Source: Microgenomates bacterium OLB23
Lineage (GTDB): Bacteria; Patescibacteriota; Microgenomatia; UBA1406; HO2-37-13b
Assembly: GCA_001567245.1 (NCBI GenBank)
Contig: LMZU01000001.1
Coordinates: 14,235-78,234, forward strand
Direction: 5' to 3'
Length of the DNA stretch: 64,000 nt
Below, in pieces: positions 1,692 through 40,401 of the stretch (within the stretch, counting starts at the first letter, position 1; every line of letters begins with the position of its first letter). The notes beneath the pieces were generated by a model. It worked only from the letters and a program-made list of their open reading frames with translations. It made no database searches and had not been told where the DNA came from. The position numbers and the translations under genes are program-made.

Positions 1692-3050
1692 ATGAAGAAA
1701 ATTGGTTTTTACGGTGCTGCCGGAACAGTTACTGGTTCTGCGTATGTGCTTACACGTTACGATAAAGATCCAGTCATGGTAGACATGGGAATGTTTCAAG
1801 GTCCAAAAGAGGTAGCTCACCTTAACTATGGCGAGCTTGCATTTGATCCTTCACAGCTTATTGGTGTATTGCTTACACATGCACATTTAGATCATTGTGG
1901 CAGGCTGCCGCTTCTTACTCGAGCTGGATTTCATAAAAAAATATATATGACGCAACCCACTGCAGATTTATTAGAGCTAACCCTCATGGATGCGGCGCAC
2001 ATTGCTGCACACGATGACACAAAGGAGCCGCTATTTACCGAACAAGATATAGAGCAAGTGCTTGCACTGGTAGAAATTGTCCAATATGATCAAGAGTTTG
2101 AGTTGGGACCATACTCAGTGCTTTACAAAGATTCAGGTCACATTATGGGCTCTGCCTCAATACAGCTCAAGGATAATTATAATCAAGACGGTGTGGGTAC
2201 CATAGTGTTTAGTGGAGATATTGGTAATTTTCCGCAAGATCTGGTACAGCCTACAGCATTCTTTAACTCTGCAGATGTAGTGCTTATGGAATCTACATAT
2301 GGTGGGCGCACGCATTCTCACGAAAATGCATCTCATGTACTGCAAGAAGAAATTAATATTATCGAAAAACAAGATGCTGCACTTTTGATTCCGTGTTTTT
2401 CAATTGAGCGCACCCAAGAAGTTTTACATCGTCTTGATCACCTTAAGTCTACCGGCAAAATACACGCCGGCACGCCTATTTTTTTAGATAGTCCCATGGC
2501 AATTAAAGCCACAGAGATTTATAAAAAATATCGATCGCTTTATAGTAAAGAGTTGTTGCAGCATAGTCAGCACGATGACCCATTTGAATTTCCGGGCCTG
2601 CGCCTTGTAGAGAAAAGCGATGAAAGTATGAAAATTCATAACACCCCTGGTGCAAAAGTAATTATTGCCGGAAGCGGAATGATGACGGGTGGGCGCATTG
2701 TGCAGCACGCGTTTCATCATTTAAAACGCTCTACAAGCAGATTACTCATTATTGGTTACCAGGGCGAGGGAACATTAGGGCGCCAGCTTGCAGATGGGGC
2801 GTCTGAAGTTGAGATAAATAAACAAATGGTTCCTGTGCACGCACATGTGCGGGTTGTTACCTCTATGAGTGCACATGCTGACGAACCAAAATTATTAGAA
2901 TGGTTAAAACATATTCGAGATGTGCGTCAACTATTTTTAGTGCACGGAGATGATGAGCCTCGAGAACAGCTCAAAAATAAAGTAATAGAGCTAGGACTAC
3001 ATAACGTGCGTTTACCTCAGCTCAACGAAGTACATGAGCTTACGGTTTAG
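1692..3050 (+). CDS. metallo-beta-lactamase / beta-CASP family ribonuclease (CPSF/RNase J-like)
   Basis: 452 aa intact ORF with the HAHLDHCG MBL motif and a C-terminal SAHAD beta-CASP motif. Confidence 0.85.
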   Translation: MKKIGFYGAAGTVTGSAYVLTRYDKDPVMVDMGMFQGPKEVAHLNYGELAFDPSQLIGVLLTHAHLDHCGRLPLLTRAGFHKKIYMTQPTADLLELTLMDAAHIAAHDDTKEPLFTEQDIEQVLALVEIVQYDQEFELGPYSVLYKDSGHIMGSASIQLKDNYNQDGVGTIVFSGDIGNFPQDLVQPTAFFNSADVVLMESTYGGRTHSHENASHVLQEEINIIEKQDAALLIPCFSIERTQEVLHRLDHLKSTGKIHAGTPIFLDSPMAIKATEIYKKYRSLYSKELLQHSQHDDPFEFPGLRLVEKSDESMKIHNTPGAKVIIAGSGMMTGGRIVQHAFHHLKRSTSRLLIIGYQGEGTLGRQLADGASEVEINKQMVPVHAHVRVVTSMSAHADEPKLLEWLKHIRDVRQLFLVHGDDEPREQLKNKVIELGLHNVRLPQLNEVHELTV

Positions 3051-4738: not shown

Positions 4739-4798
4739 TTACAAAGAAATTACCGAAACCTTCAAAAAAGAACACCTTAGCGACTAGCTCACACGATG

Positions 4799-4872
4799 TG
4801 ACCCCGACGAGATTCGAACTCGTGATTTTCAGGATGAGAACCTGACGTCCTAGGCCGCTAGACGACGGGGCC
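4799..4872 (-). tRNA. tRNA-Glu (anticodon CUC)
   Basis: Manual cloverleaf of rc: GGCCCCG-TC-GTCT..GGAC-G-TCAGG-TTCTCAT-CCTGA-AAATC-ACGAG-TTCGAAT-CTCGT-CGGGGTC-A. No encoded CCA. A TATAAT (rc of 4885-4890) lies 12 nt upstream. Confidence 0.85.
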
Positions 4873-4918
4873 ATATTACACGATATTATACATGAGTTTC
4901 TACCTATGAGAAAAGGAA

Positions 4919-4952
4919 GCAGCTGGTGGCGGGCACGGGTACCACCAGCTGC
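4919..4952 (-). terminator. intrinsic terminator of cassette gene A
   Basis: 11-bp perfect GC-rich stem (GCAGCTGGTGG / CCACCAGCTGC) followed on the minus strand by TTCCTTTTCTC. Confidence 0.7.
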
Positions 4953-4972
4953 CTTTGCCGCTGCTGCGGCAG

Positions 4973-5146
4973 CTACTCGAGTGTGTAACCCGCGTTTCTT
5001 GCGGCCGTCTCGGCCGCCTCGCGAGTTGGGAACAGGTATGGCTTTGTCCCCTCGATCGGGTTGGGGTTCGTGAGATACCCCTTTCCTCGACCGAGATCGA
5101 CAAGGAAGTATCCTTTATGATCCCTTGATTCTCGGATGTGAACCAT
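4973..5146 (-). CDS. small GC-rich cassette protein A (57 aa), family with F-x5-A-x3-A-x3-G-Y motif
   Basis: Track ORF 4973..5209 trimmed to ATG 5146, which is preceded by AAAGGA (SD). MVHIRESRDHKGYFLVDLGRGKGYLTNPNPIEGTKPYLFPTREAAETAARNAGYTLE. Has its own promoter and terminator. Confidence 0.65.
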   Translation of the reverse strand: MVHIRESRDHKGYFLVDLGRGKGYLTNPNPIEGTKPYLFPTREAAETAARNAGYTLE

Positions 5147-5174
5147 GGTTGAACCCGTCCTTTGTGCCCATAGT

Positions 5175-5203
5175 ATTTTAACATAGGACGGTATATGTGG
5201 CAA
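5175..5203 (-). promoter_or_regulatory. sigma70-type promoter of cassette A (-35 TTGCCA, 17 nt, -10 TAAAAT)
   Basis: rc of 5198-5203 is TTGCCA and rc of 5175-5180 is TAAAAT. The spacing was counted by hand. Confidence 0.55.
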
Positions 5204-5223
5204 GAACACAAATAAGAAAGAAA

Positions 5224-5254
5224 GGCGAGCGGGGAGGGCACGGCCCCGCTCGCC
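5224..5254 (-). terminator. intrinsic terminator of cassette gene B
   Basis: 11-bp perfect stem GGCGAGCGGGG / CCCCGCTCGCC with a 9-nt loop, followed on the minus strand by TTTCTTTCTTATTT. Confidence 0.7.
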
Positions 5255-5257
5255 GAG

Positions 5258-5494
5258 CTACAAAGTGTAGCCATGCAAGGTCGCTTGTAGAGCGGCCTCG
5301 GCTCGTGTGTTGAAAATCTGCTTGAGATCTTCGATGTGGGTTGGTCTGCCGTTATGCTGCATGCATCCGGCCTCTTCGCCGGTGTCTGCATCGTAGAGCA
5401 TAACGTAGAACTCTCCCGTAGTACCACAGACCGTGTACGTATAGTGTTTTGGTTCTGCCACCGACACCACCTTTCTGTGCCCTTCCAGCCTCAT
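5258..5494 (-). CDS. small GC-rich cassette protein B (78 aa), same family
   Basis: Track ORF 5258..5575 starts at a TTG in AT-rich DNA, so I trimmed it to ATG 5494: MRLEGHRKVVSVAEPKHYTYTVCGTTGEFYVMLYDADTGEEAGCMQHNGRPTHIEDLKQIFNTRAEAALQATLHGYTL. No SD; TATAGT/TATAAT abuts the ATG, so it may be leaderless. Confidence 0.6.
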   Translation of the reverse strand: MRLEGHRKVVSVAEPKHYTYTVCGTTGEFYVMLYDADTGEEAGCMQHNGRPTHIEDLKQIFNTRAEAALQATLHGYTL

Positions 5495-5593
5495 TATACT
5501 ATAAGACAAGTAGTTTTTGGCAGTTTGACATTGACCTGTTTCTGGTGTATAGTTAGGGGTAATTAAGGCCCTCAAGCCTTATTTTTTGTGTAT

Positions 5594-6055
5594 ATGTCAG
5601 ATCAATACAATTTATCACAAGAAGGATACGACAAACTCATCAAAGAGCTTGACGAACTCAAAAACGATAAACGGCCTCAGGCGGTACAGCGACTTGCTAC
5701 GGCTCGATCTATGGGTGATTTGTCTGAAAACAGCGAATATACCGCAGCTAAAGATGATCTTGGCCTTATAGATAGCCGCATTATGGAAATTGAGCAAATT
5801 GCTCAGAACGCCCATATTGTTGAGCACCACGCAGGTGAATCGACTGTTCAAATAGGTAACAAGGTGCTTGTAAAGTCAGATGATAGCGAAGAGTTGTACC
5901 ATATAGTAGGAGAATTCGAAGCAGATATTACCGCAGGCAAGATTTCTGAGTCATCACCAATTGGTAAAGCATTACTAGGAGCCAAAGTTGGTACCACTGT
6001 AAGCGTAACCATTCCTGCAGGTACAGTTACCTACAAAGTAGTTAAGATAGACTAA
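5594..6055 (+). CDS. greA: transcription elongation factor GreA
   Basis: MSDQYNLSQEGYDKLIKELDELK...GDLSENSEYTAAKD is a classic GreA coiled-coil plus C-terminal domain. ATG 5594 is preferred over GTG 5588. Confidence 0.9.
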   Translation: MSDQYNLSQEGYDKLIKELDELKNDKRPQAVQRLATARSMGDLSENSEYTAAKDDLGLIDSRIMEIEQIAQNAHIVEHHAGESTVQIGNKVLVKSDDSEELYHIVGEFEADITAGKISESSPIGKALLGAKVGTTVSVTIPAGTVTYKVVKID

Positions 6056-19992: not shown

Positions 19993-20015
19993 CCCCGGCG
20001 CCGTAGGCGCCGGGG
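19993..20015. terminator. GC-rich hairpin between convergent tsaD and cassette C (possible bidirectional terminator)
   Basis: CCCCGGCGC-cgtag-GCGCCGGGG, a 9-bp stem. The flanking T-tracts are weak. Confidence 0.45.
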
Positions 20016-20027
20016 TTGTAGCACGGA

Positions 20028-20219
20028 TCATGGCCGAATCGCAATGCTCAGGTTATTTTCCCTGGCATATTGATCGGCCTCAGCTTCCGAGGTAAACTTC
20101 TTGGCACCTTGGAGTCTGTTGGTGATTCCATTGCCCTCCGTCAAGTAGAAGCATCCGAAAATTCCATAGGCTGTCACGAACACGTAGGTAGTTCCAACCT
20201 TAAGAAGTTCGACATTCAT
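20028..20219 (-). CDS. small GC-rich cassette protein C (63 aa), same family
   Basis: Track ORF 20028..20294 trimmed to ATG 20219, which is preceded by AAAGAGG (SD). MNVELLKVGTTYVFVTAYGIFGCFYLTEGNGITNRLQGAKKFTSEAEADQYARENNLSIAIRP. Confidence 0.6.
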   Translation of the reverse strand: MNVELLKVGTTYVFVTAYGIFGCFYLTEGNGITNRLQGAKKFTSEAEADQYARENNLSIAIRP

Positions 20220-20265
20220 TGTGTGCCTCTTTGTTTGGTGCTTCCTACCGGATGTAGGAGTAACA

Positions 20266-20294
20266 AGTATATCAAAATATAACAAAGAAGGCAA
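20266..20294 (-). promoter_or_regulatory. sigma70-type promoter of cassette C (-35 TTGCCT, 17 nt, -10 TATACT)
   Basis: rc of 20289-20294 is TTGCCT and rc of 20266-20271 is TATACT. Confidence 0.55.
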
Positions 20295-20301
20295 TTTTGA
20301 A

Positions 20302-20376
20302 GGTGGCGGGGGGGAGGATCGAACTCCCGACCTGTCGCTTATGAGACGACCGCTCTAACCACTGAGCTACCCAGCC
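20302..20376 (-). tRNA. tRNA with CAU anticodon (Met; an Ile2/lysidine or initiator role cannot be excluded)
   Basis: rc: GGCTGGG-TA-GCTC-AGTGGTTA-GAGC-G-GTCGT-CTCATAA-GCGAC-AGGTC-GGGAG-TTCGATC-CTCCC-CCCCGCC-A. There is one acceptor-stem mismatch (T4:C69). Confidence 0.8.
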
Positions 20377-37468: not shown

Positions 37469-38330
37469 ACGCGCGTTTATATGTGTCGACCAAATATGCG
37501 TTGCCCGACACAATGCCAATGGCAAGCGCTACAGCCGCTTTTAATTGTAGCATATATATAATGAGCCTCTGTTGCAAGGGGGAATAGTGTTTTTTATAGA
37601 AAAAAATATAACCTTGAAATACCTTTATTATAGGTTGGGAACGTGTATTGCTCGATGCAGCCTCTAAATGAATGAAGGTTGCATCGGGGTATACGCCGGT
37701 GGTGAGTTTTTTCTTGGCAGCTCTATACAAAAGGTCAACTTCGTCCCAGTACATAAAAATTGAATTGTCAAATCCGCCAAGAGACGAGAATGTTGCAGCC
37801 TTTGTTATTAGTGCGGCGCCAGACGCCCAGTCTACTTTTTGCGTTTTGCGAACGGGCCAGCGGCTGGCGCCCCAGACATCTCCTTTAAAAAAAAGAGCGG
37901 CTGCTGCAATAAGTGGTGTGTAAAAGCGGCCGCACGATGCTTGTGGAGATTGGTCTTTGTTCACAAGTCGTGCCCCTAAAAAATCAAATTGTTTTTGAGA
38001 TACAAAAAATCTATACAACCGTGGCACGGCATCATTAACTGCTAGAGTATCAGAATTTAAAAACAGCAGGCTGTCTCCCTTGGCAATCATAGCCGCATTG
38101 TTATTGCCTCCAGTAAAACCCAGGTTGTCTTTATGTGCGACAATTCTCACGCGAGAATCTTTAATCTTTGCAAGCATTTTTATGCTTTCATCTTGAGAAT
38201 TGTTGTCCCATACAACGACTTCTGCATTAAGTTTTGCATCATGGTCTAGTGAGGTGAGGATAGAGCAAATACAGTCGTAGGTAATTTGAGCGGTGTTATA
38301 TGAAAGCACAATAATAGAAAGATCCTTCAT
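37446..38330 (-). CDS. glycosyltransferase family 2
   Basis: 294 aa intact, with LSIIVLSYNT...VWDNNSQDES...FLNSD. TATAAT (rc of 38337-38342) lies 6 nt upstream of the ATG. Confidence 0.85.
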   Translation of the reverse strand: MKDLSIIVLSYNTAQITYDCICSILTSLDHDAKLNAEVVVWDNNSQDESIKMLAKIKDSRVRIVAHKDNLGFTGGNNNAAMIAKGDSLLFLNSDTLAVNDAVPRLYRFFVSQKQFDFLGARLVNKDQSPQASCGRFYTPLIAAAALFFKGDVWGASRWPVRKTQKVDWASGAALITKAATFSSLGGFDNSIFMYWDEVDLLYRAAKKKLTTGVYPDATFIHLEAASSNTRSQPIIKVFQGYIFFYKKHYSPLQQRLIIYMLQLKAAVALAIGIVSGNAYLVDTYKRAYEITKKT

Positions 38331-38344
38331 AGCTTAATTATACA

Positions 38345-38373
38345 TTGAAGAATTAAACCTCTGCTATTATACT
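38345..38373 (+). promoter_or_regulatory. sigma70-type promoter of cassette D (-35 TTGAAG, 17 nt, -10 TATACT)
   Basis: TTGAAG 38345-38350 and TATACT 38368-38373. It sits back-to-back with the GT2 -10 box on the other strand. Confidence 0.55.
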
Positions 38374-38397
38374 GTCGCCGAGCGAGAAAGGACACAC

Positions 38398-38601
38398 ATG
38401 CAACCTCAACCCACCTATGCACACATCTATCGCTCGGGTAACGGCTACCGAGTAGATGTGTACGGTTCCAGAGGGCAACCGATGGGTGAACTCAAGAATA
38501 GCAATGGTGGCAAGGATTTTCGCAATTGGGGAATTGCGATGAGAGCTGCACGAGTCGCAGGGCTCGCCAAGCTCCCCCGTCATCTCGGCGGCAGGGGCTA
38601 A
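38398..38601 (+). CDS. small GC-rich cassette protein D (67 aa), same family
   Basis: SD GAAAGGA before ATG 38398. MQPQPTYAHIYRSGNGYRVDVYGSRGQPMGELKNSNGGKDFRNWGIAMRAARVAGLAKLPRHLGGRG. The stop codon lies in the terminator loop. Confidence 0.65.
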   Translation: MQPQPTYAHIYRSGNGYRVDVYGSRGQPMGELKNSNGGKDFRNWGIAMRAARVAGLAKLPRHLGGRG

Positions 38602-38620
38602 GCGTAGCCCCTGCTTTTTT
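38591..38620 (+). terminator. intrinsic terminator 1 of cassette D
   Basis: GCAGGGGCT-aagcgt-AGCCCCTGC followed by T6. Confidence 0.8.
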
Positions 38621-38621
38621 A

Positions 38622-38663
38622 CGAGCCTGCCGCCTCGCTCACCGGCAGGCTCGTTTTCTTTTC
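38622..38663 (+). terminator. intrinsic terminator 2 (tandem) of cassette D
   Basis: CGAGCCTGCCG-cctcgctcac-CGGCAGGCTCG followed by TTTTCTTTTC. Confidence 0.75.
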
Positions 38664-38673
38664 GCAACCTCAA

Positions 38674-38682
38674 TGATATACT
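38674..38682 (+). promoter_or_regulatory. extended -10 promoter of cassette E (TGaTATACT)
   Basis: TG 38674-38675 and TATACT 38677-38682. The -35 is weak (TTTTCT). Confidence 0.5.
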
Positions 38683-38706
38683 ACACATGGGTACAAGGAG
38701 GGTGCA

Positions 38707-38925
38707 ATGTCCAATCGAGACAGGTTTTTCCCAGACAAGTGGTTCATCATTGTCCCCGCAAACGGTTGGTACGAAGTTCATACCTACGCAGGCAGGCGCC
38801 GTGTTGGTGTCATCGAACACAGGGGCAATCCGCTGTTCTCACTTGAGGCTACTGCGCGGGCTGCTGCGGTTGCAGAGGGTTACACAACAGAACGCTTCGA
38901 CACAGATGGTGTCGAAGCGTTCTAA
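38707..38925 (+). CDS. small GC-rich cassette protein E (72 aa), same family
   Basis: SD AAGGAGGG lies 4-5 nt before ATG 38707. MSNRDRFFPDKWFIIVPANGWYEVHTYAGRRRVGVIEHRGNPLFSLEATARAAAVAEGYTTERFDTDGVEAF. Confidence 0.65.
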   Translation: MSNRDRFFPDKWFIIVPANGWYEVHTYAGRRRVGVIEHRGNPLFSLEATARAAAVAEGYTTERFDTDGVEAF

Positions 38926-38943
38926 TCACCAAAATGGTGATAT

Positions 38944-38985
38944 GCCCGGCGGCTATGTACCCACCCGCCGGGCACTTTCTTTACT
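38944..38985 (+). terminator. intrinsic terminator of cassette E
   Basis: GCCCGGCGG (38944-52) pairs with CCGCCGGGC (38965-73), followed by ACTTTCTTTACTT. Confidence 0.6.
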
Positions 38986-39010
38986 TAACCATCTGCTATA
39001 ATTTCTCCAT

Positions 39011-40401
39011 ATGTTAGATGCACAACAAGCTGCCTCTCGATTCTCTATAGACACAATTGCTGCGCTTTTAAAGCGTAGAGGGTTTATATTCCCCTCATCA
39101 GAAATATATGGTGGTTGGGAAGCCGCATACGATTTTGGTCCACTAGGTGCAGAAATTTTGCGCAACATCCGATCATCATGGTGGAAGCACTTTGTGCATA
39201 TGTCTGATCGAAATGTTGGCCTTGATGGAGCGCTCATTTCGCACCCACGAGTATGGGAAGCAAGCGGTCATGTTGAAGCATTTAATGACGTAATGGTAGA
39301 AGACACTGTAACAAAAAAGCGCTACAGAGCCGATCATATAATAGAAGATGCAACTGGCGAAAAAGTAGATGGCATGTCGCCCGAAGAAATAAACAAGCTT
39401 ATTCAGGCTAAACGCATAAAAAGCCCAGATGGCAATGCATTATCAGAAGCAAAAAGATTTAACATTTTAGTAGAAGCACAAGTAGGCACAGTTGCAGATC
39501 AAAAAACAACTGCATATTTGCGCGGCGAAACATGCCAGGCAATTTTTTACAACTTTAAACTAGTTAAAGACAGCATGCGACTCAAACTTCCCTTTGGTAT
39601 TGCACAAGTTGGCAAGGCATTTCGAAATGAAATAAAAAGTTGGTCCATATGTATTCAGAACACGCGAGTTTGAACAAATGGAACTAGAAGTATTCTTAAA
39701 AAGAAGATGAGGCTATGCAAAAGTATGAAGATCTTAAAGAAGAAAGTGTAGCCTGGCTTAAAAGCATAGGGATAGATACATCTAAATTACGCTTTCGCGA
39801 TCAAGAGTTTAAAGAAAGAGCGCACTATAATAAAGTTGCCACAGATCTTGAATATGAGTTTCCATTTGGATGGAAGGAGTTTCAGGGTATTCATTACCGT
39901 GGAGATTGGGATTTAAAGCGACATAGTGAGTTTTCTGGCGAAGACCTATCATATCGTGATGACGAAACGGGTGCCTTATTTATCCCTCATGTTACAGAAT
40001 ACTCCATTGGTCTCAATCGACTTCTTCTTGTTATTGTGTGTGATGCTTATCACCAAGATGATAAGAGAACATATCTTAAATTACATCCCCATATTGCGCC
40101 CTATAAGGTTGCGGTCTTTCCTCTTGTGCGCAACAAAGAAGAACTAACAAATAAAGCACGCACTGTTTTTACCGATCTAAAGCAGCTTGGGTATTATGTG
40201 GCGTGGGATGATCGTGGCAATATAGGCAAGCGCTACCTATCTCAAGACGAAATCGGCACGCCGCTTTGTGTTACGATAGATTATCAAACGCTAGAAGATA
40301 ACACTGTCACTGTGCGCAATCGTGACACAATGGTGCAAGAGCGTGTAAAACTTGATACACTAAATCAGTACATTACAACTTTCATTACAAATTACGCGTA
40401 A
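39011..40401 (+). CDS. glyQS: glycyl-tRNA synthetase (alpha2 dimeric type); two frameshifts in assembly
   Basis: ORFs 39011..39673 and 39715..40401. Reading A5 39634-39638 and A5 39698-39702 each as A4 restores ...[44 protein letters not shown]... TATAAT 38997-39002 lies 8 nt before the ATG. Confidence 0.9.

What the first reader, a model, noticed from the sequence alone, without database searches (positions are those of the whole stretch)
4880..5580. GC-rich island next to tRNA-Glu with two autonomous mini-genes: founding members of a 5-member small-protein family
**Island and units.** In an AT-rich genome this ~700-bp stretch is conspicuously GC-rich (roughly 55-60% by eye). It holds two independently terminated units on the minus strand, gene A (4973..5146, 57 aa) and gene B (5258..5494, 78 aa). 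Each ends in a perfect 11-bp GC stem plus a T-tract. Gene A also has a near-consensus promoter (TTGCCA-17-TAAAAT) and an AAAGGA SD.

**Shared motif.** Together with C (20028..20219), D (38398..38601) and E (38707..38925) they share a precisely spaced C-terminal motif:
- A: FPTREAAETAARNAGY
- B: FNTRAEAALQATLHGY
- E: FSLEATARAAAVAEGY
- C: FTSEAEADQYARENNL
- D: FRNWGIAMRAARVAGL

This gives F-x5-A-x3-A-x3-[GN]-[YL]. It is preceded by an aromatic beta-hairpin-like segment (YRVDVYG, YEVHTYAG, YVFVTAYG, FYVMLYD, YFLVDLG). The nucleotide sequences differ, so conservation is at the protein level.

**Interpretation.** The one-gene-one-promoter-one-terminator layout resembles phage morons. The F-x-T-[KR]-x-E-A-x3-A core reminds me of DUF2188 and YegP/DUF1508-type small domains, but that is memory only. 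GC content and signals foreign to the resident genes suggest horizontal acquisition. If this is an epibiotic Saccharibacteria-like organism, a high-GC host such as Actinobacteria, or its phages, is an attractive source; this is speculation.
Basis: partly seen in the sequence, partly recalled or inferred. Interest (0 to 1): 0.8.

Follow-up and report, generated by a model that had tools for sequence, protein, structure and literature searches.

The report
Small GC-rich genes with self-pairing mRNAs
An uncultured CPR bacterium carries tiny, real, fast-evolving protein genes whose GC-rich messenger RNAs appear to pair their 5' end with the loop of their own terminator hairpin, a feature kept by compensating mutations and not explained by recent gene transfer.

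Summary
The only sustained GC peaks in this 40%-GC window are the three sites named. Each carries one or two small ORFs with its own promoter and a GC-rich hairpin.

The interpretation does not hold.
- The genes sit in the same positions in at least six related Microgenomates genomes.
- Their GC3 (0.46-0.76, against 0.31-0.34 background) persists although synonymous sites are saturated.
- No phage or outside homologue exists.
- There is no DUF2188 or YegP match.

So this is not recent transfer and not a phage moron.

The ORFs are real genes: orthologues differ at codon positions 1/2/3 at about 0.3/0.3/0.6, and the AlphaFold model of A has pLDDT 92.7. They form an orphan family confined to this clade. 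A, B and E are clearly related, D is a probable distant member, and C is weak. The start of B is probably GTG at 5461, not ATG at 5494.

The new result concerns the mRNA. A 7-8 nt box just after the -10 element is complementary to the 3' side of the terminator loop in A, B, D, E and their orthologues. Of 84 positions, 83 pair, against 57.5 when loops are permuted (0 of 200,000). There are double compensatory changes, G.U wobbles, and a wholly different box and loop in D. The likely result is a closed, protected mRNA. What the proteins do is unknown.

The parts
5175..5203 (-). Gene A promoter: -35 TTGCCA (5198-5203), 17-nt spacer, extended -10 TAAAAT (5175-5180)
   Evidence: The -10 element and the downstream leader are conserved in 7 relatives.
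5164..5170 (-). Gene A 5' box TGGGCAC, 4 nt after the -10 element and 24 nt before the ATG. Complementary to the terminator loop.
4973..5146 (-). Gene A coding sequence, 57 aa (A-type); Shine-Dalgarno AAAGGA at 5158-5163
   Evidence: ORF. Orthologues in L001-L004, L081 and L084. pN 0.23-0.46 below pS 0.6-0.86 for window A and its L001-L003 orthologues. AlphaFold pLDDT 92.7.
4956..4971 (-). Small hairpin TGCCGC-AGCA-GCGGCA between the stop codon of A and its terminator. Conserved in A-type orthologues, with GCCGC/GCGGC versus GTCGC/GCGAC compensation.
4908..4952 (-). Gene A terminator: 11-bp stem GCAGCTGGTGG/CCACCAGCTGC, 12-nt loop holding the box complement GTGCCCG (4930-4936), then tail TTCCTTTTCTC (4908-4918)
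4798..4872 (-). tRNA-Glu(CTC) directly downstream of unit A, with its own -10 TATAAT at 4885-4890. A neighbour, not part of the unit.
5477..5498 (-). Gene B -10 element TATAAT (5493-5498) and 5' box AGGGCAC (5477-5483); Shine-Dalgarno AAAGGTGG at 5467-5474
5258..5461 (-). Gene B coding sequence, 67 aa from GTG 5461 (B-type).
   Evidence: (position 1/2/3 differences about 0.3/0.3/0.6)
5210..5254 (-). Gene B terminator: 11-bp stem GGCGAGCGGGG/CCCCGCTCGCC, loop CCGTGCCCT holding the complement GTGCCCT (5235-5241), then tail TTTCTTTCTTATTT
19993..20271 (-). Unit C: -10 TATACT (20266-20271), local 5' hairpin (20243-20259), SD (20226-20232), coding sequence 20028-20219 (63 aa), 10-bp hairpin with a 3-nt loop (19993-20015). 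It has no box-loop pairing and its family membership is weak.
38368..38392 (+). Gene D -10 TATACT (38368-38373), 5' box GAGCGAG (38380-38386), SD AAAGGA (38387-38392)
38398..38601 (+). Gene D coding sequence, 67 aa (D-type; basic, net +8)
38591..38663 (+). D 3' region: first hairpin with T6 (38591-38614), then an 11-bp-stem hairpin (38622-38653) whose loop holds CTCGCTC (38634-38640), complementary to the D box, then TTTTCTTTTC
38677..38702 (+). Gene E -10 TATACT (38677-38682), 5' box TGGGTACA (38688-38695), SD AGGAGGG (38696-38702)
38707..38925 (+). Gene E coding sequence, 72 aa (E-type)
38926..38986 (+). E 3' region: small hairpin (38926-38940), 9-bp-stem terminator (38944-38973) whose loop holds TGTACCCA (38956-38963), complementary to the E box, then a T-rich tail

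Best explanation
These are genuine, vertically inherited mini-genes of a small Microgenomates clade. Each is a self-contained transcription unit: strong promoter, short leader, ORF of 57-72 codons, GC-rich intrinsic-terminator-like hairpin. Each encodes a member of an orphan family of soluble small proteins with two or three beta-strands followed by one capped alpha-helix.

Their unusual GC content is a maintained property of the transcripts, not a trace of foreign origin.

In the A, B, D and E types, a 7-8 nt box at or very near the 5' end of the mRNA base-pairs with the 3' side of the large loop of the unit's own terminator hairpin. This makes a pseudoknot that closes the roughly 260-300 nt mRNA. 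The leader helix can stack on the terminator stem.

I infer that this buries the 5' end and, together with the highly structured GC-rich body, gives a long-lived mRNA and abundant small protein. The closest analogue is the 5'/3'-UTR interaction that protects B. subtilis hbs mRNA.

Shown here: coding status, synteny, maintained GC3, excess RNA structure, and box-loop complementarity with covariation.
Inferred: the transcription start, the stabilising effect, and high expression.
Unknown: the proteins' biochemical role. Only core residues are conserved and the surfaces evolve fast, which suggests binding modules rather than enzymes.
For: Coding:
- B orthologues differ at codon positions 1/2/3 at about 0.3/0.3/0.6, with pN 0.23-0.33 against pS 0.65-0.85.
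- Frames are kept in all relatives.
- AlphaFold gives pLDDT 92.7 for A and 78 for B from 9-sequence alignments.

Vertical inheritance and maintained GC:
- Same slots in L001-L004, L081, L083, L084, L205-L209.
- GC3 0.46-0.76 against 0.31-0.34 in all genomes despite saturated synonymous sites.

RNA structure:
- Transcript z-scores are -4.3 to -6.1.
- Coding-region z-scores against synonymous-codon shuffles are -1.1 to -3.4 (mean -2.4), against -0.53 +/- 1.06 for 34 control gene segments.

Box-loop pairing:
- An unbiased search finds the longest leader-loop duplex at the same box in 14 of 15 genes.
- The box starts 18-24 nt before the start codon, and the complement lies 0-2 nt from the 3' stem strand.
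- 98.9% of cells pair, against 82.9% shuffled (0 of 500) and 33-48% when slid. Four of 7 pairs change on both sides.
- Over 12 distinct box/loop types, 83 of 84 positions pair, against a permuted mean of 57.5 (0 of 200,000). Excluding D-types P = 5e-6.
- D uses unrelated sequences (GAGCGAG/CTCGCTC), and its orthologues show an A-U to U-A swap.
- Four G.U wobbles would be A.C mismatches on the other strand.
- Antisense loops find only 4-nt matches.

Clade specificity:
- Such hairpins number 16 per 172 kb in the clade, 9 with a complement of at least 7 nt.
- Controls have 7 per 1.9 Mb, with one chance hit.

Context and precedent:
- A beta-CASP/RMMBL RNase-family gene is at 1692-3050.
- Precedents for 5'-3' interactions are described in PMC7821165 (hbs, icaR, RNAIII).
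Against: - There are no transcript data, so the transcription start, the 3' end and the pairing itself are all inferred.
- The covariation alignment was registered by hand, with variable unpaired loop residues trimmed.
- Many sequences are orthologues, so the counts are not independent events.
- One cell is a mismatch (L4_A, A.A).
- Unit C and the second small gene in L205 lack the feature, so it is not universal.
- D has an upstream canonical terminator (38591-38614 plus T6) that could end many transcripts before the pairing hairpin.
- In nested MFE folds the Shine-Dalgarno sequence tends to pair with the C-containing U-tract. The closure could therefore repress translation rather than protect the mRNA.
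- High GC3 could also come from GC-biased gene conversion or from codon selection.
- The proteins' function is unknown. Structure searches gave nothing below E = 0.1.
Confidence: 0.55

Rival explanations
1. One reading: the islands are recently acquired foreign genes, like phage morons or genes from a high-GC donor such as Actinobacteria, and the GC content is a leftover of the donor genome.
For: - GC and GC3 are far from those of the resident genes.
- Each gene has its own promoter and terminator.
- Slot content varies between relatives. The greA slot holds B+A, an E-like gene plus A, or A alone. The GT2/GlyRS slot holds two, one or no genes.
- There is a weak hit to phrog_2465, a phage family of unknown function (E 0.002).
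Against: - The slots are the same in at least six genomes whose synonymous sites are saturated, yet GC3 remains high in all. A passive relic would have decayed towards background.
- The flanks are housekeeping genes, not prophage genes.
- No relatives were found in phage records (B only), in IMG/VR, or anywhere outside the clade among billions of proteins. No donor pool is visible.
- L210 looks like a deletion remnant.
Confidence: 0.08
2. The 5'-3' pairing is an inhibitory lock, as in type I toxin mRNAs (hok tac/fbi, AapA1) or icaR. The full-length mRNA is kept translationally inert and is activated by processing or by a trigger. The proteins could be growth-modulating.
For: - 5'-3' long-distance interactions are a hallmark of type I toxin mRNAs (PMC8594479; PMC7821165).
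- These are small ORFs with their own promoter and terminator, in multiple diverged copies in intergenic regions with presence/absence variation.
- In nested folds the Shine-Dalgarno sequence has a low unpaired probability (0.10-0.34) and pairs with the pyrimidine tail after the terminator.
Against: - The proteins are hydrophilic, with no transmembrane-like segment (maximum 19-residue Kyte-Doolittle score 1.4 or less; GRAVY mostly negative).
- No antisense promoter was detected at either locus.
- The covarying box does not overlap the Shine-Dalgarno sequence or the start codon.
- SD-tail complementarity is what one expects between any purine-rich and pyrimidine-rich stretch, and no covariation was shown for it.
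- There are no PADLOC hits.
Confidence: 0.15
3. Dual-function RNAs: the GC-rich, highly structured transcripts act mainly as regulatory or structural RNAs, like RNAIII/hld or SR1/SR1P. The small ORF is secondary, or the loci are purely non-coding.
For: - Transcript folding z-scores are -4.3 to -6.1, with excess structure inside the coding regions.
- GC3 is maintained without any known codon rationale.
- RNAIII also closes its 5' and 3' ends with a 7-bp helix (PMC7821165).
Against: - Codon-position substitution pattern, conserved frames and confident protein models show selection on the protein.
- There is no Rfam match, even at E<=1.
- Outside the leader, box and hairpins, the nucleotide sequence is poorly conserved (orthologues are 41-69% identical at nucleotide level).

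The purely non-coding version is effectively excluded. The dual-function version is not.
Confidence: 0.12
4. The box and its complement are DNA-level inverted repeats that mark the ends of a mobile or recombining gene cassette. That would explain why slots differ in content between relatives.
For: - Slot occupancy varies, and one paralogue is replaced by another at the same site.
- The repeats bracket each unit.
Against: - The repeats are only 7-8 bp long.
- The 3' copy always lies in the loop of a hairpin and next to its 3' strand.
- Four cognate pairs use G.U, which pairs only in sense-strand RNA.
- No recombinase gene is nearby.
- The L210 remnant keeps the promoter and box but has lost the rest, which is not a precise excision.
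Confidence: 0.05

Closest known systems
B. subtilis hbs mRNA 5'/3'-UTR interaction (Braun et al. 2017, as summarised in PMC7821165)
   Same: A monocistronic mRNA for a small protein in which a short 3'UTR segment pairs with the 5'UTR of the same molecule. In hbs this protects the mRNA from RNase attack at the 5'UTR.
   Different: - Here the 3' partner is the loop of the terminator hairpin itself, giving a pseudoknot that can stack on the stem.
- The 5' partner appears to sit at the very 5' end.
- The design is shared by a whole paralogous gene family and kept by covariation.
- The coding region is also GC-enriched and over-structured.
- No experimental evidence exists here.
Type I toxin mRNAs with 5'-3' long-distance interactions (hok tac/fbi, H. 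pylori AapA1); S. aureus icaR 3'UTR anti-RBS
   Same: Intramolecular pairing between the 5' and 3' ends of short mRNAs. The loci are multi-copy, intergenic and autonomous.
   Different: - In those systems the interaction sequesters the ribosome-binding site and an antisense RNA or RNase processing is involved.
- Here the box lies outside the Shine-Dalgarno sequence and no antisense promoter was found.
- The proteins here are hydrophilic 57-72 aa beta/alpha domains, not membrane peptides.
DUF2188 (PF09954) and YegP/DUF1508 (PF07411) small domains
   Same: Small size, and a beta-strands-then-helix layout with an 'F/Y-x-[ST]-x-x-EA' helix start. The layout of those two families is from my own knowledge.
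   Different: No member matches either Pfam model, even at E<=10. The shared motif is a generic helix cap that also matches INT_rpt repeats and a designed mini-protein.
Phage morons
   Same: One promoter, one gene and one terminator, with deviant base composition.
   Different: They are not in a prophage and have no phage homologues. They are syntenic across related genomes, and their composition is maintained over saturating divergence.
SH3-like hairpin and INT_rpt (PF14882) repeat proteins (partial profile hits)
   Same: The A-type segment 'KDHxG[YFH][FW][IV]A..DGR..G[YF]V.NPNP' resembles the SH3 'W-[WY]-x-A...G..G-[FI]-[VI]-P' hairpin. The C-terminal helix resembles the first helix of INT_rpt.
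   Different: Each hit covers only about 20-30 residues of the profile and becomes significant only by summing over 4-7 repeats. There is no full-domain match. These are resemblances, not membership.

Membership tests
DUF2188 (PF09954) | Significant match to the Pfam model | tested here: not met
   hmmscan of the 5 window proteins and of all 13 aligned members at E<=10: PF09954 is not listed.
YegP / DUF1508 (PF07411) | Significant match to the Pfam model | tested here: not met
   Same scans: PF07411 is not listed. The profile search of PDB sequences found only a designed mini-protein at E 0.66.
Phage moron | Autonomous promoter and terminator around a single gene | tested here: met
   Promoter-like sites and GC-rich hairpins with T-rich tails flank A, B, D and E.
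Phage moron | Located within a prophage or phage genome, with homologues in phages | tested here: not met
   The flanks are DedA, tRNA-Glu, greA, GT2 and GlyRS. No relatives in INPHARED (B only) or IMG/VR.
Recently transferred genomic island | Deviant composition that is a decaying relic, with patchy presence in close relatives | tested here: not met
   GC3 is high in all related genomes although pS is 0.6-0.86. The sites are syntenic.
Intrinsic (Rho-independent) terminator | GC-rich stem-loop followed by a U-rich tract | tested here: met
   9-14 bp perfect stems followed by T-rich, C-interspersed tails. The loops are unusually large (9-15 nt), so the simple scan with its 3-8 nt loop limit missed them.
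mRNA with 5'UTR-3'UTR intramolecular interaction (hbs / icaR / RNAIII kind) | Complementarity between the 5' leader and the 3'UTR of the same transcript, supported by covariation | tested here: met
   83 of 84 positions pair, and permutation gives 0 of 200,000.
mRNA with 5'UTR-3'UTR intramolecular interaction (hbs / icaR / RNAIII kind) | Demonstrated effect on stability or translation | not testable with these tools
   Needs half-life, probing and compensatory-mutation experiments.
Type I toxin-antitoxin | Small hydrophobic (membrane) toxin peptide | tested here: not met
   GRAVY is -0.86 to +0.08 and the maximum 19-residue Kyte-Doolittle score is 1.41 or less.
Type I toxin-antitoxin | Cis-encoded antisense RNA antitoxin | tested here: inconclusive
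   The consensus scan finds no antisense promoter at either locus. A consensus scan cannot exclude one.
Known RNA families (Rfam 15) | Covariance-model match | tested here: not met
   Only the three tRNAs at gathering threshold. Nothing at E<=1 in 4850-5600 or 38300-39050.
Known defence or annotated prokaryotic families (PADLOC, NCBIfam) | HMM match | tested here: not met
   No family at E<=0.1 for any of 13 members.

The most novel reading that the evidence does not exclude
A clade of CPR bacteria has evolved a dedicated 'closed-loop' mRNA format for a family of small proteins. The 5'-terminal nucleotides are captured by the loop of the mRNA's own terminator hairpin and stack on its stem. The whole coding region has been driven to high GC and excess structure by selection on the RNA.

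If so, the transcript is itself a selected object. It may be an unusually long-lived mRNA, or one that also acts as a regulatory RNA. This would be a bacterial counterpart of mRNA circularisation, and it would explain GC islands in an AT-rich genome without any gene transfer.
Probability: 0.3. Interest if true: 0.8.

Novelty: new variant of a known kind. Interest (0 to 1): 0.62.

Why it matters
1. It gives a worked counter-example to the habit of reading GC-deviant islands with autonomous signals as horizontal transfer. Here the deviant composition is stably maintained in vertically inherited genes.
2. It identifies a covariation-supported pseudoknot between the 5' leader and the terminator loop, shared by a whole paralogous gene family. 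Known bacterial 5'-3' UTR interactions are single-gene cases, so a family with natural compensatory variants is a ready-made test set for how end-to-end pairing affects mRNA decay and translation.
3. It adds an orphan, fast-evolving small-protein family that the one NCBI annotation examined here (L206) leaves uncalled. That bears on the large 'hypothetical' fraction of CPR genomes.
4. In practice, small-gene calling in GC-rich patches of AT-rich genomes is unreliable, because long ORFs occur in several frames and wrong starts are easily chosen. The leader, box and terminator grammar gives an independent way to find such genes.

Tried and rejected
- **Rfam.** Gathering threshold on the whole window, and E<=1 on both islands: nothing but tRNAs.
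- **Pfam, PHROGs, PADLOC, NCBIfam on all members.** Nothing meaningful.
- **Exact look-up of the eight ORF variants.** Absent from the collection.
- **B alone against 5.8 billion proteins.** No hit.
- **tblastn of B against phage records.** One insignificant hit.
- **Family profile against PDB sequences.** Only a designed mini-protein, at E 0.66.
- **Foldseek of the A and B models against PDB, and of A against BFVD.** Best E 0.12-0.21, not usable.
- **Locus scans with B-type and A-type profiles.** None in viral contigs. B-type found none in metagenome contigs. The A-type alignment and the full alignment were too diverse to scan.
- **Leader probe TAVAATACTATGGGCA in metagenomes.** 120 mostly chance matches; only the already known L081 lineage was real.
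- **Exact look-ups of the window's own DedA and GT2 products.** Not on record.
- **RNAduplex cognate/non-cognate matrix over 40-nt leaders.** Uninformative, because G-rich Shine-Dalgarno regions pair with any C-rich loop. Replaced by register-based counts.
- **MAFFT alignment including D.** It mis-registered D, so D was analysed separately.
- **GC-rich spot in L001 at 15.9-16.3 kb.** It lies inside SecA.
- **The only distant 'instance', in L078.** It lies inside rimM and KH-protein coding sequence and is chance.
- **SD pairing with the U-tract.** Seen in MFE folds. I judged it possibly trivial and did not build on it.
Full report
**What is in the sequence**

The window is 40.1% GC, with a standard deviation of 0.045 over 200-bp windows.

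The ORFs exist:
- A: 4973..5146(-), 57 aa
- B: 5258..5494(-), 78 aa as read
- C: 20028..20219(-), 63 aa
- D: 38398..38601(+), 67 aa
- E: 38707..38925(+), 72 aa

tRNA-Glu(CTC) lies at 4798-4872(-) and tRNA-Met at 20302-20376(-). Gene A has TTGCCA-17-TAAAAT with a TG extension. A and B are each followed by a perfect 11-bp stem and a T-rich tail. The simple terminator scan missed these hairpins because their loops are 9-12 nt long, beyond its limit.

**Which organism, and is the island foreign?**

GreA next to the island finds its closest relatives in Microgenomates/Woesebacteria-like CPR genomes. L001-L004 have GreA at 83-90% identity, and L004 is a complete 938-kb chromosome. The window's own glycosyltransferase is 100% identical to a protein of an NCBI 'Microgenomates bacterium' MAG.

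All four relatives have a GC-rich island between tRNA-Glu(CTC) and greA, with two small ORFs on the same strand. L083 and L084 show the same layout. L081 has only the A-type gene.

At the second site, between the glycosyltransferase and the glycine-tRNA ligase, occupancy varies:
- The L001 genome has two small genes.
- L209 has one.
- L210 has none, but keeps the D promoter and leader in a 139-bp gap. That looks like a deletion remnant.

The units are therefore old residents of fixed intergenic slots, with occasional loss. They are sometimes replaced by a different paralogue: L004 has an E-like gene where the others have B, and the second gene in L205 is not an orthologue of E.

**Coding or not?**

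B-type orthologues differ at codon positions 1/2/3 at about 0.3/0.3/0.6, with pN 0.23-0.33 against pS 0.65-0.85. A-type orthologues behave similarly. GreA between the same genomes has dN 0.05-0.10, so the small proteins evolve about four to six times faster but remain under purifying selection. The alignments were protein-guided, which flatters this test somewhat.

Reading frames and the strand-strand-helix pattern are kept in every relative. AlphaFold gives a confident model of A (pLDDT 92.7: strands 2-6 and 14-17, helix 42-51) and a fair one of B (78.1), with residues 1-12 of the 78-aa form disordered.

The orthologue alignment and the conserved promoter show that the ATG at 5494 lies inside the -10 element TATAGTATAATG. 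The real start of B is most likely GTG at 5461, giving 67 aa. The ncRNA-only alternative is rejected.

**Composition is maintained, not inherited from a donor**

Family GC3 is 0.46-0.76 in all five genomes examined. Long ORFs have GC3 of 0.31-0.34, with a maximum of 0.40 in the window. Synonymous sites between these genomes are saturated, so a passive relic of a GC-rich donor would have decayed.

No donor pool is visible:
- B alone finds nothing in 5.8 billion proteins.
- The 13-sequence profile finds only four A-type orthologues.
- An exhaustive HMMER search of 1.84 billion representatives adds one more true member, P0006.
- Phage records (B only) and IMG/VR contain no relatives.

The transfer and moron interpretation is therefore not supported.

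**The protein family**

Smith-Waterman scores against shuffles link A-B (z 4.7), B-E (5.7), A-E (3.3) and B-C (3.75). D is weak pairwise. With its two orthologues, however, the D-type profile aligns to an A/B/E profile that excludes it over the whole domain (56 columns, P 1.4e-4, probability 53%). C matches only over the 25-residue helix segment (probability 28%).

No member matches DUF2188 or YegP/DUF1508, even at E<=10. PADLOC and NCBIfam find nothing. PHROGs gives only a weak hit to a family of unknown function. Structure searches give nothing better than E = 0.12.

The non-family hits of the exhaustive search are instructive. INT_rpt repeat proteins match only the helix (Y-x-T-W-x-EA-x-x-AA-x-x-LG). 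SH3 repeats match only the hairpin. The best PDB sequence hit is a de novo designed mini-protein.

Only core residues (Gly, Phe, Ala, Ala) are invariant. The proteins are hydrophilic with no transmembrane-like segment. A, B and E types are neutral to acidic, and the D-type is strongly basic (net +8 in three orthologues).

**The new feature: 5' box pairs with the terminator loop**

Aligning the upstream regions showed that the A-type leader 'TAAAAT-ACTA-TGGGCAC-AAAG' is conserved at nucleotide level in seven genomes. Yet it is read in different frames relative to the ORF in different genomes, so it is not coding.

The large loop of each downstream hairpin contains the reverse complement of the 7-nt box. 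An unbiased search for the longest leader-loop duplex lands on the same box in 14 of 15 genes. The box starts 18-24 nt before the start codon, and the complement lies 0-2 nt from the 3' strand of the stem.

The pairs co-vary:

| Genes | 5' box | Loop |
|---|---|---|
| L1_A, L81_A | TGGGCAC | GTGCCCA |
| window A | TGGGCAC | GTGCCCG (U.G) |
| L2_A | TGGGCAT | ATGCCCA |
| L3_A | TGGGCAG | TTGCCCA (G.U) |
| window E | TGGGTAC | GTACCCA |
| L4 E-like | TGGGGAC | GTCCCCA |
| window B, L1_B | AGGGCAC | GTGCCCT |
| L3_B | AGGGCGC | GCGCCCT |
| L2_B | AGGGCGT | GCGCCCT (U.G) |
| window D | GAGCGAG | CTCGCTC |
| L205/L209 D | GAGCGTG | TACGCTC |

Statistics:
- On a 13-sequence register alignment the long-range helix is 98.9% paired, against 82.9 +/- 2.4% in shuffles (0 of 500) and 33-48% when slid by 1-3 columns. 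Four of seven pairs change on both sides. The terminator stem itself has all 8 pairs changing on both sides.
- Over the 12 distinct box/loop types, cognate pairing gives 83 of 84 positions, against 57.5 +/- 4.5 for random reassignment (0 of 200,000). Without the D-types it is 69 of 70, P = 5e-6.
- In the whole window only eight loci have perfect stems of at least 9 bp with loops of 7-16 nt, and four of them are these terminators. On the sense strand they find 6-8 nt matches 219-256 nt upstream. On the antisense strand they find only 4 nt.

Across data sets, GC-rich large-loop terminator-like hairpins number 16 in 172 kb of the clade, and 9 of them have a Watson-Crick complement of at least 7 nt. 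There are 2 in 1.19 Mb of more distant Microgenomates and 5 in 0.75 Mb of unrelated metagenome DNA, with one hit that proved to be chance.

Caveats:
- I set the register by hand and trimmed variable unpaired loop residues.
- Orthologues are not independent.
- One cell is a mismatch (L4_A).
- Unit C has a 3-nt loop and a local 5' hairpin instead.
- The second gene in L205 lacks the feature.

**How it probably works**

With a -10 element 4-6 nt upstream, transcription should start at or within a few nucleotides of the box in the A, D and E types, and a little further upstream in the B type. This is inferred; there are no transcript data.

The box-loop helix lies next to the 3' strand of the terminator stem, so the two helices could stack into one continuous helix of about 20 bp, with the 5' end at the junction. 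That is an H-type pseudoknot closing a 260-300 nt mRNA.

The transcripts are far more structured than dinucleotide shuffles (z -4.3 to -6.1). The coding regions alone are more structured than synonymous-codon shuffles (z -3.4, -1.7, -2.3, -3.4, -1.1), while 34 control gene segments give -0.53 +/- 1.06.

I take this, together with the maintained GC3, to mean that selection acts on the RNA as well as on the protein. The most economical function is protection of the 5' end and of the body of the mRNA from RNases, giving a stable and abundantly translated message. This parallels the hbs 5'/3'-UTR interaction in B. subtilis (PMC7821165). A beta-CASP/RMMBL RNase-family gene is present at 1692-3050. 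It scores below the equivalog cut-offs, so I do not call it RNase J.

The main rival is an inhibitory lock, as in type I toxin mRNAs or icaR. The Shine-Dalgarno sequence is mostly paired in nested folds, often with the C-containing U-tract. Against this, the covarying box does not overlap the Shine-Dalgarno sequence, no antisense promoter is seen, and the proteins are not membrane peptides.

A DNA-level inverted-repeat (cassette) explanation is disfavoured by the G.U pairs and by the loop placement.

**What remains unknown**

The biochemical role of the proteins is unknown. Invariant core residues and fast-changing surfaces suggest small binding modules, and the basic D-type might bind nucleic acid. 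The cause of the high GC3 is also open: it could be selection for RNA stability, biased gene conversion or codon selection.

**Verdict**

What is there is an orphan, clade-restricted family of small proteins. They are expressed from unusual, GC-rich, self-pairing monocistronic mRNAs. That is a new variant of the known 5'-3' UTR interaction theme, supported by natural compensatory changes but still lacking any transcript-level evidence.

Noticed in passing
window 39011-39673 (+) and 39715-40401 (+): The glycine-tRNA ligase next to gene E is split into two ORFs in different frames. Both halves match glycine-tRNA ligase models, and relatives have a single 462-aa gene. This could be a frameshift, an assembly error or a pseudogene.
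   Followed up: partly
window 5525-5581 (+): greA is preceded by a near-consensus promoter (TTGACA-17-TATAGT) and then, inside its leader, a hairpin plus T-tract (5564-5581). The leader is conserved in L001-L003. It looks like an attenuator, reminiscent of the E. coli greA leader (own knowledge).
   Followed up: no
window 1692-3050 (+): A 452-aa beta-CASP/RMMBL metallo-beta-lactamase-fold ribonuclease-family protein. Its best NCBIfam hits are Cas14-like and aCPSF1 models, well below their cut-offs. It is conserved near greA in L081.
   Followed up: partly
window 4885-4912 (-): tRNA-Glu(CTC) has its own promoter-like site (TTCTCA-16-TATAAT), which overlaps the T-rich tail of gene A's terminator. 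The 'ATGTATAATAT' element recurs in L002 and L004/L083.
   Followed up: partly
window 4956-4971 (-); 38926-38940 (+); L001-L004, L081, L084 equivalents: A second, small hairpin sits between the stop codon and the large-loop terminator in A-type and E-type units. In A-type units it shows a compensatory change (GCCGC/GCGGC versus GTCGC/GCGAC). Its function is unknown. In D the equivalent hairpin carries a T6 tract and looks like a terminator in its own right.
   Followed up: partly
L206 2385-3000 (NCBI record CAZTFB010000001.1): The NCBI annotation of this relative calls no genes in the D/E-equivalent gap, whereas the Logan gene calls on identical DNA list 62- and 63-aa genes. B-type genes were also absent from the clustered protein database. 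Small genes in GC-rich patches are inconsistently annotated.
   Followed up: partly
L210 2009-2146: The gap between GlyRS and GT2 retains the D-type promoter and leader (TGCTATACTATCGGCGAGCGTAAGAATAGGAG) but has no gene and no terminator. It appears to be a deletion remnant.
   Followed up: partly
window 38398-38601 (+); L205 2741-2929 (-); L209 2738-2950 (-): D-type proteins are consistently very basic (net +8, pI 10-11) and end in a conserved 'KLP.HLGG' tail, unlike the neutral or acidic A, B and E types.
   Followed up: no
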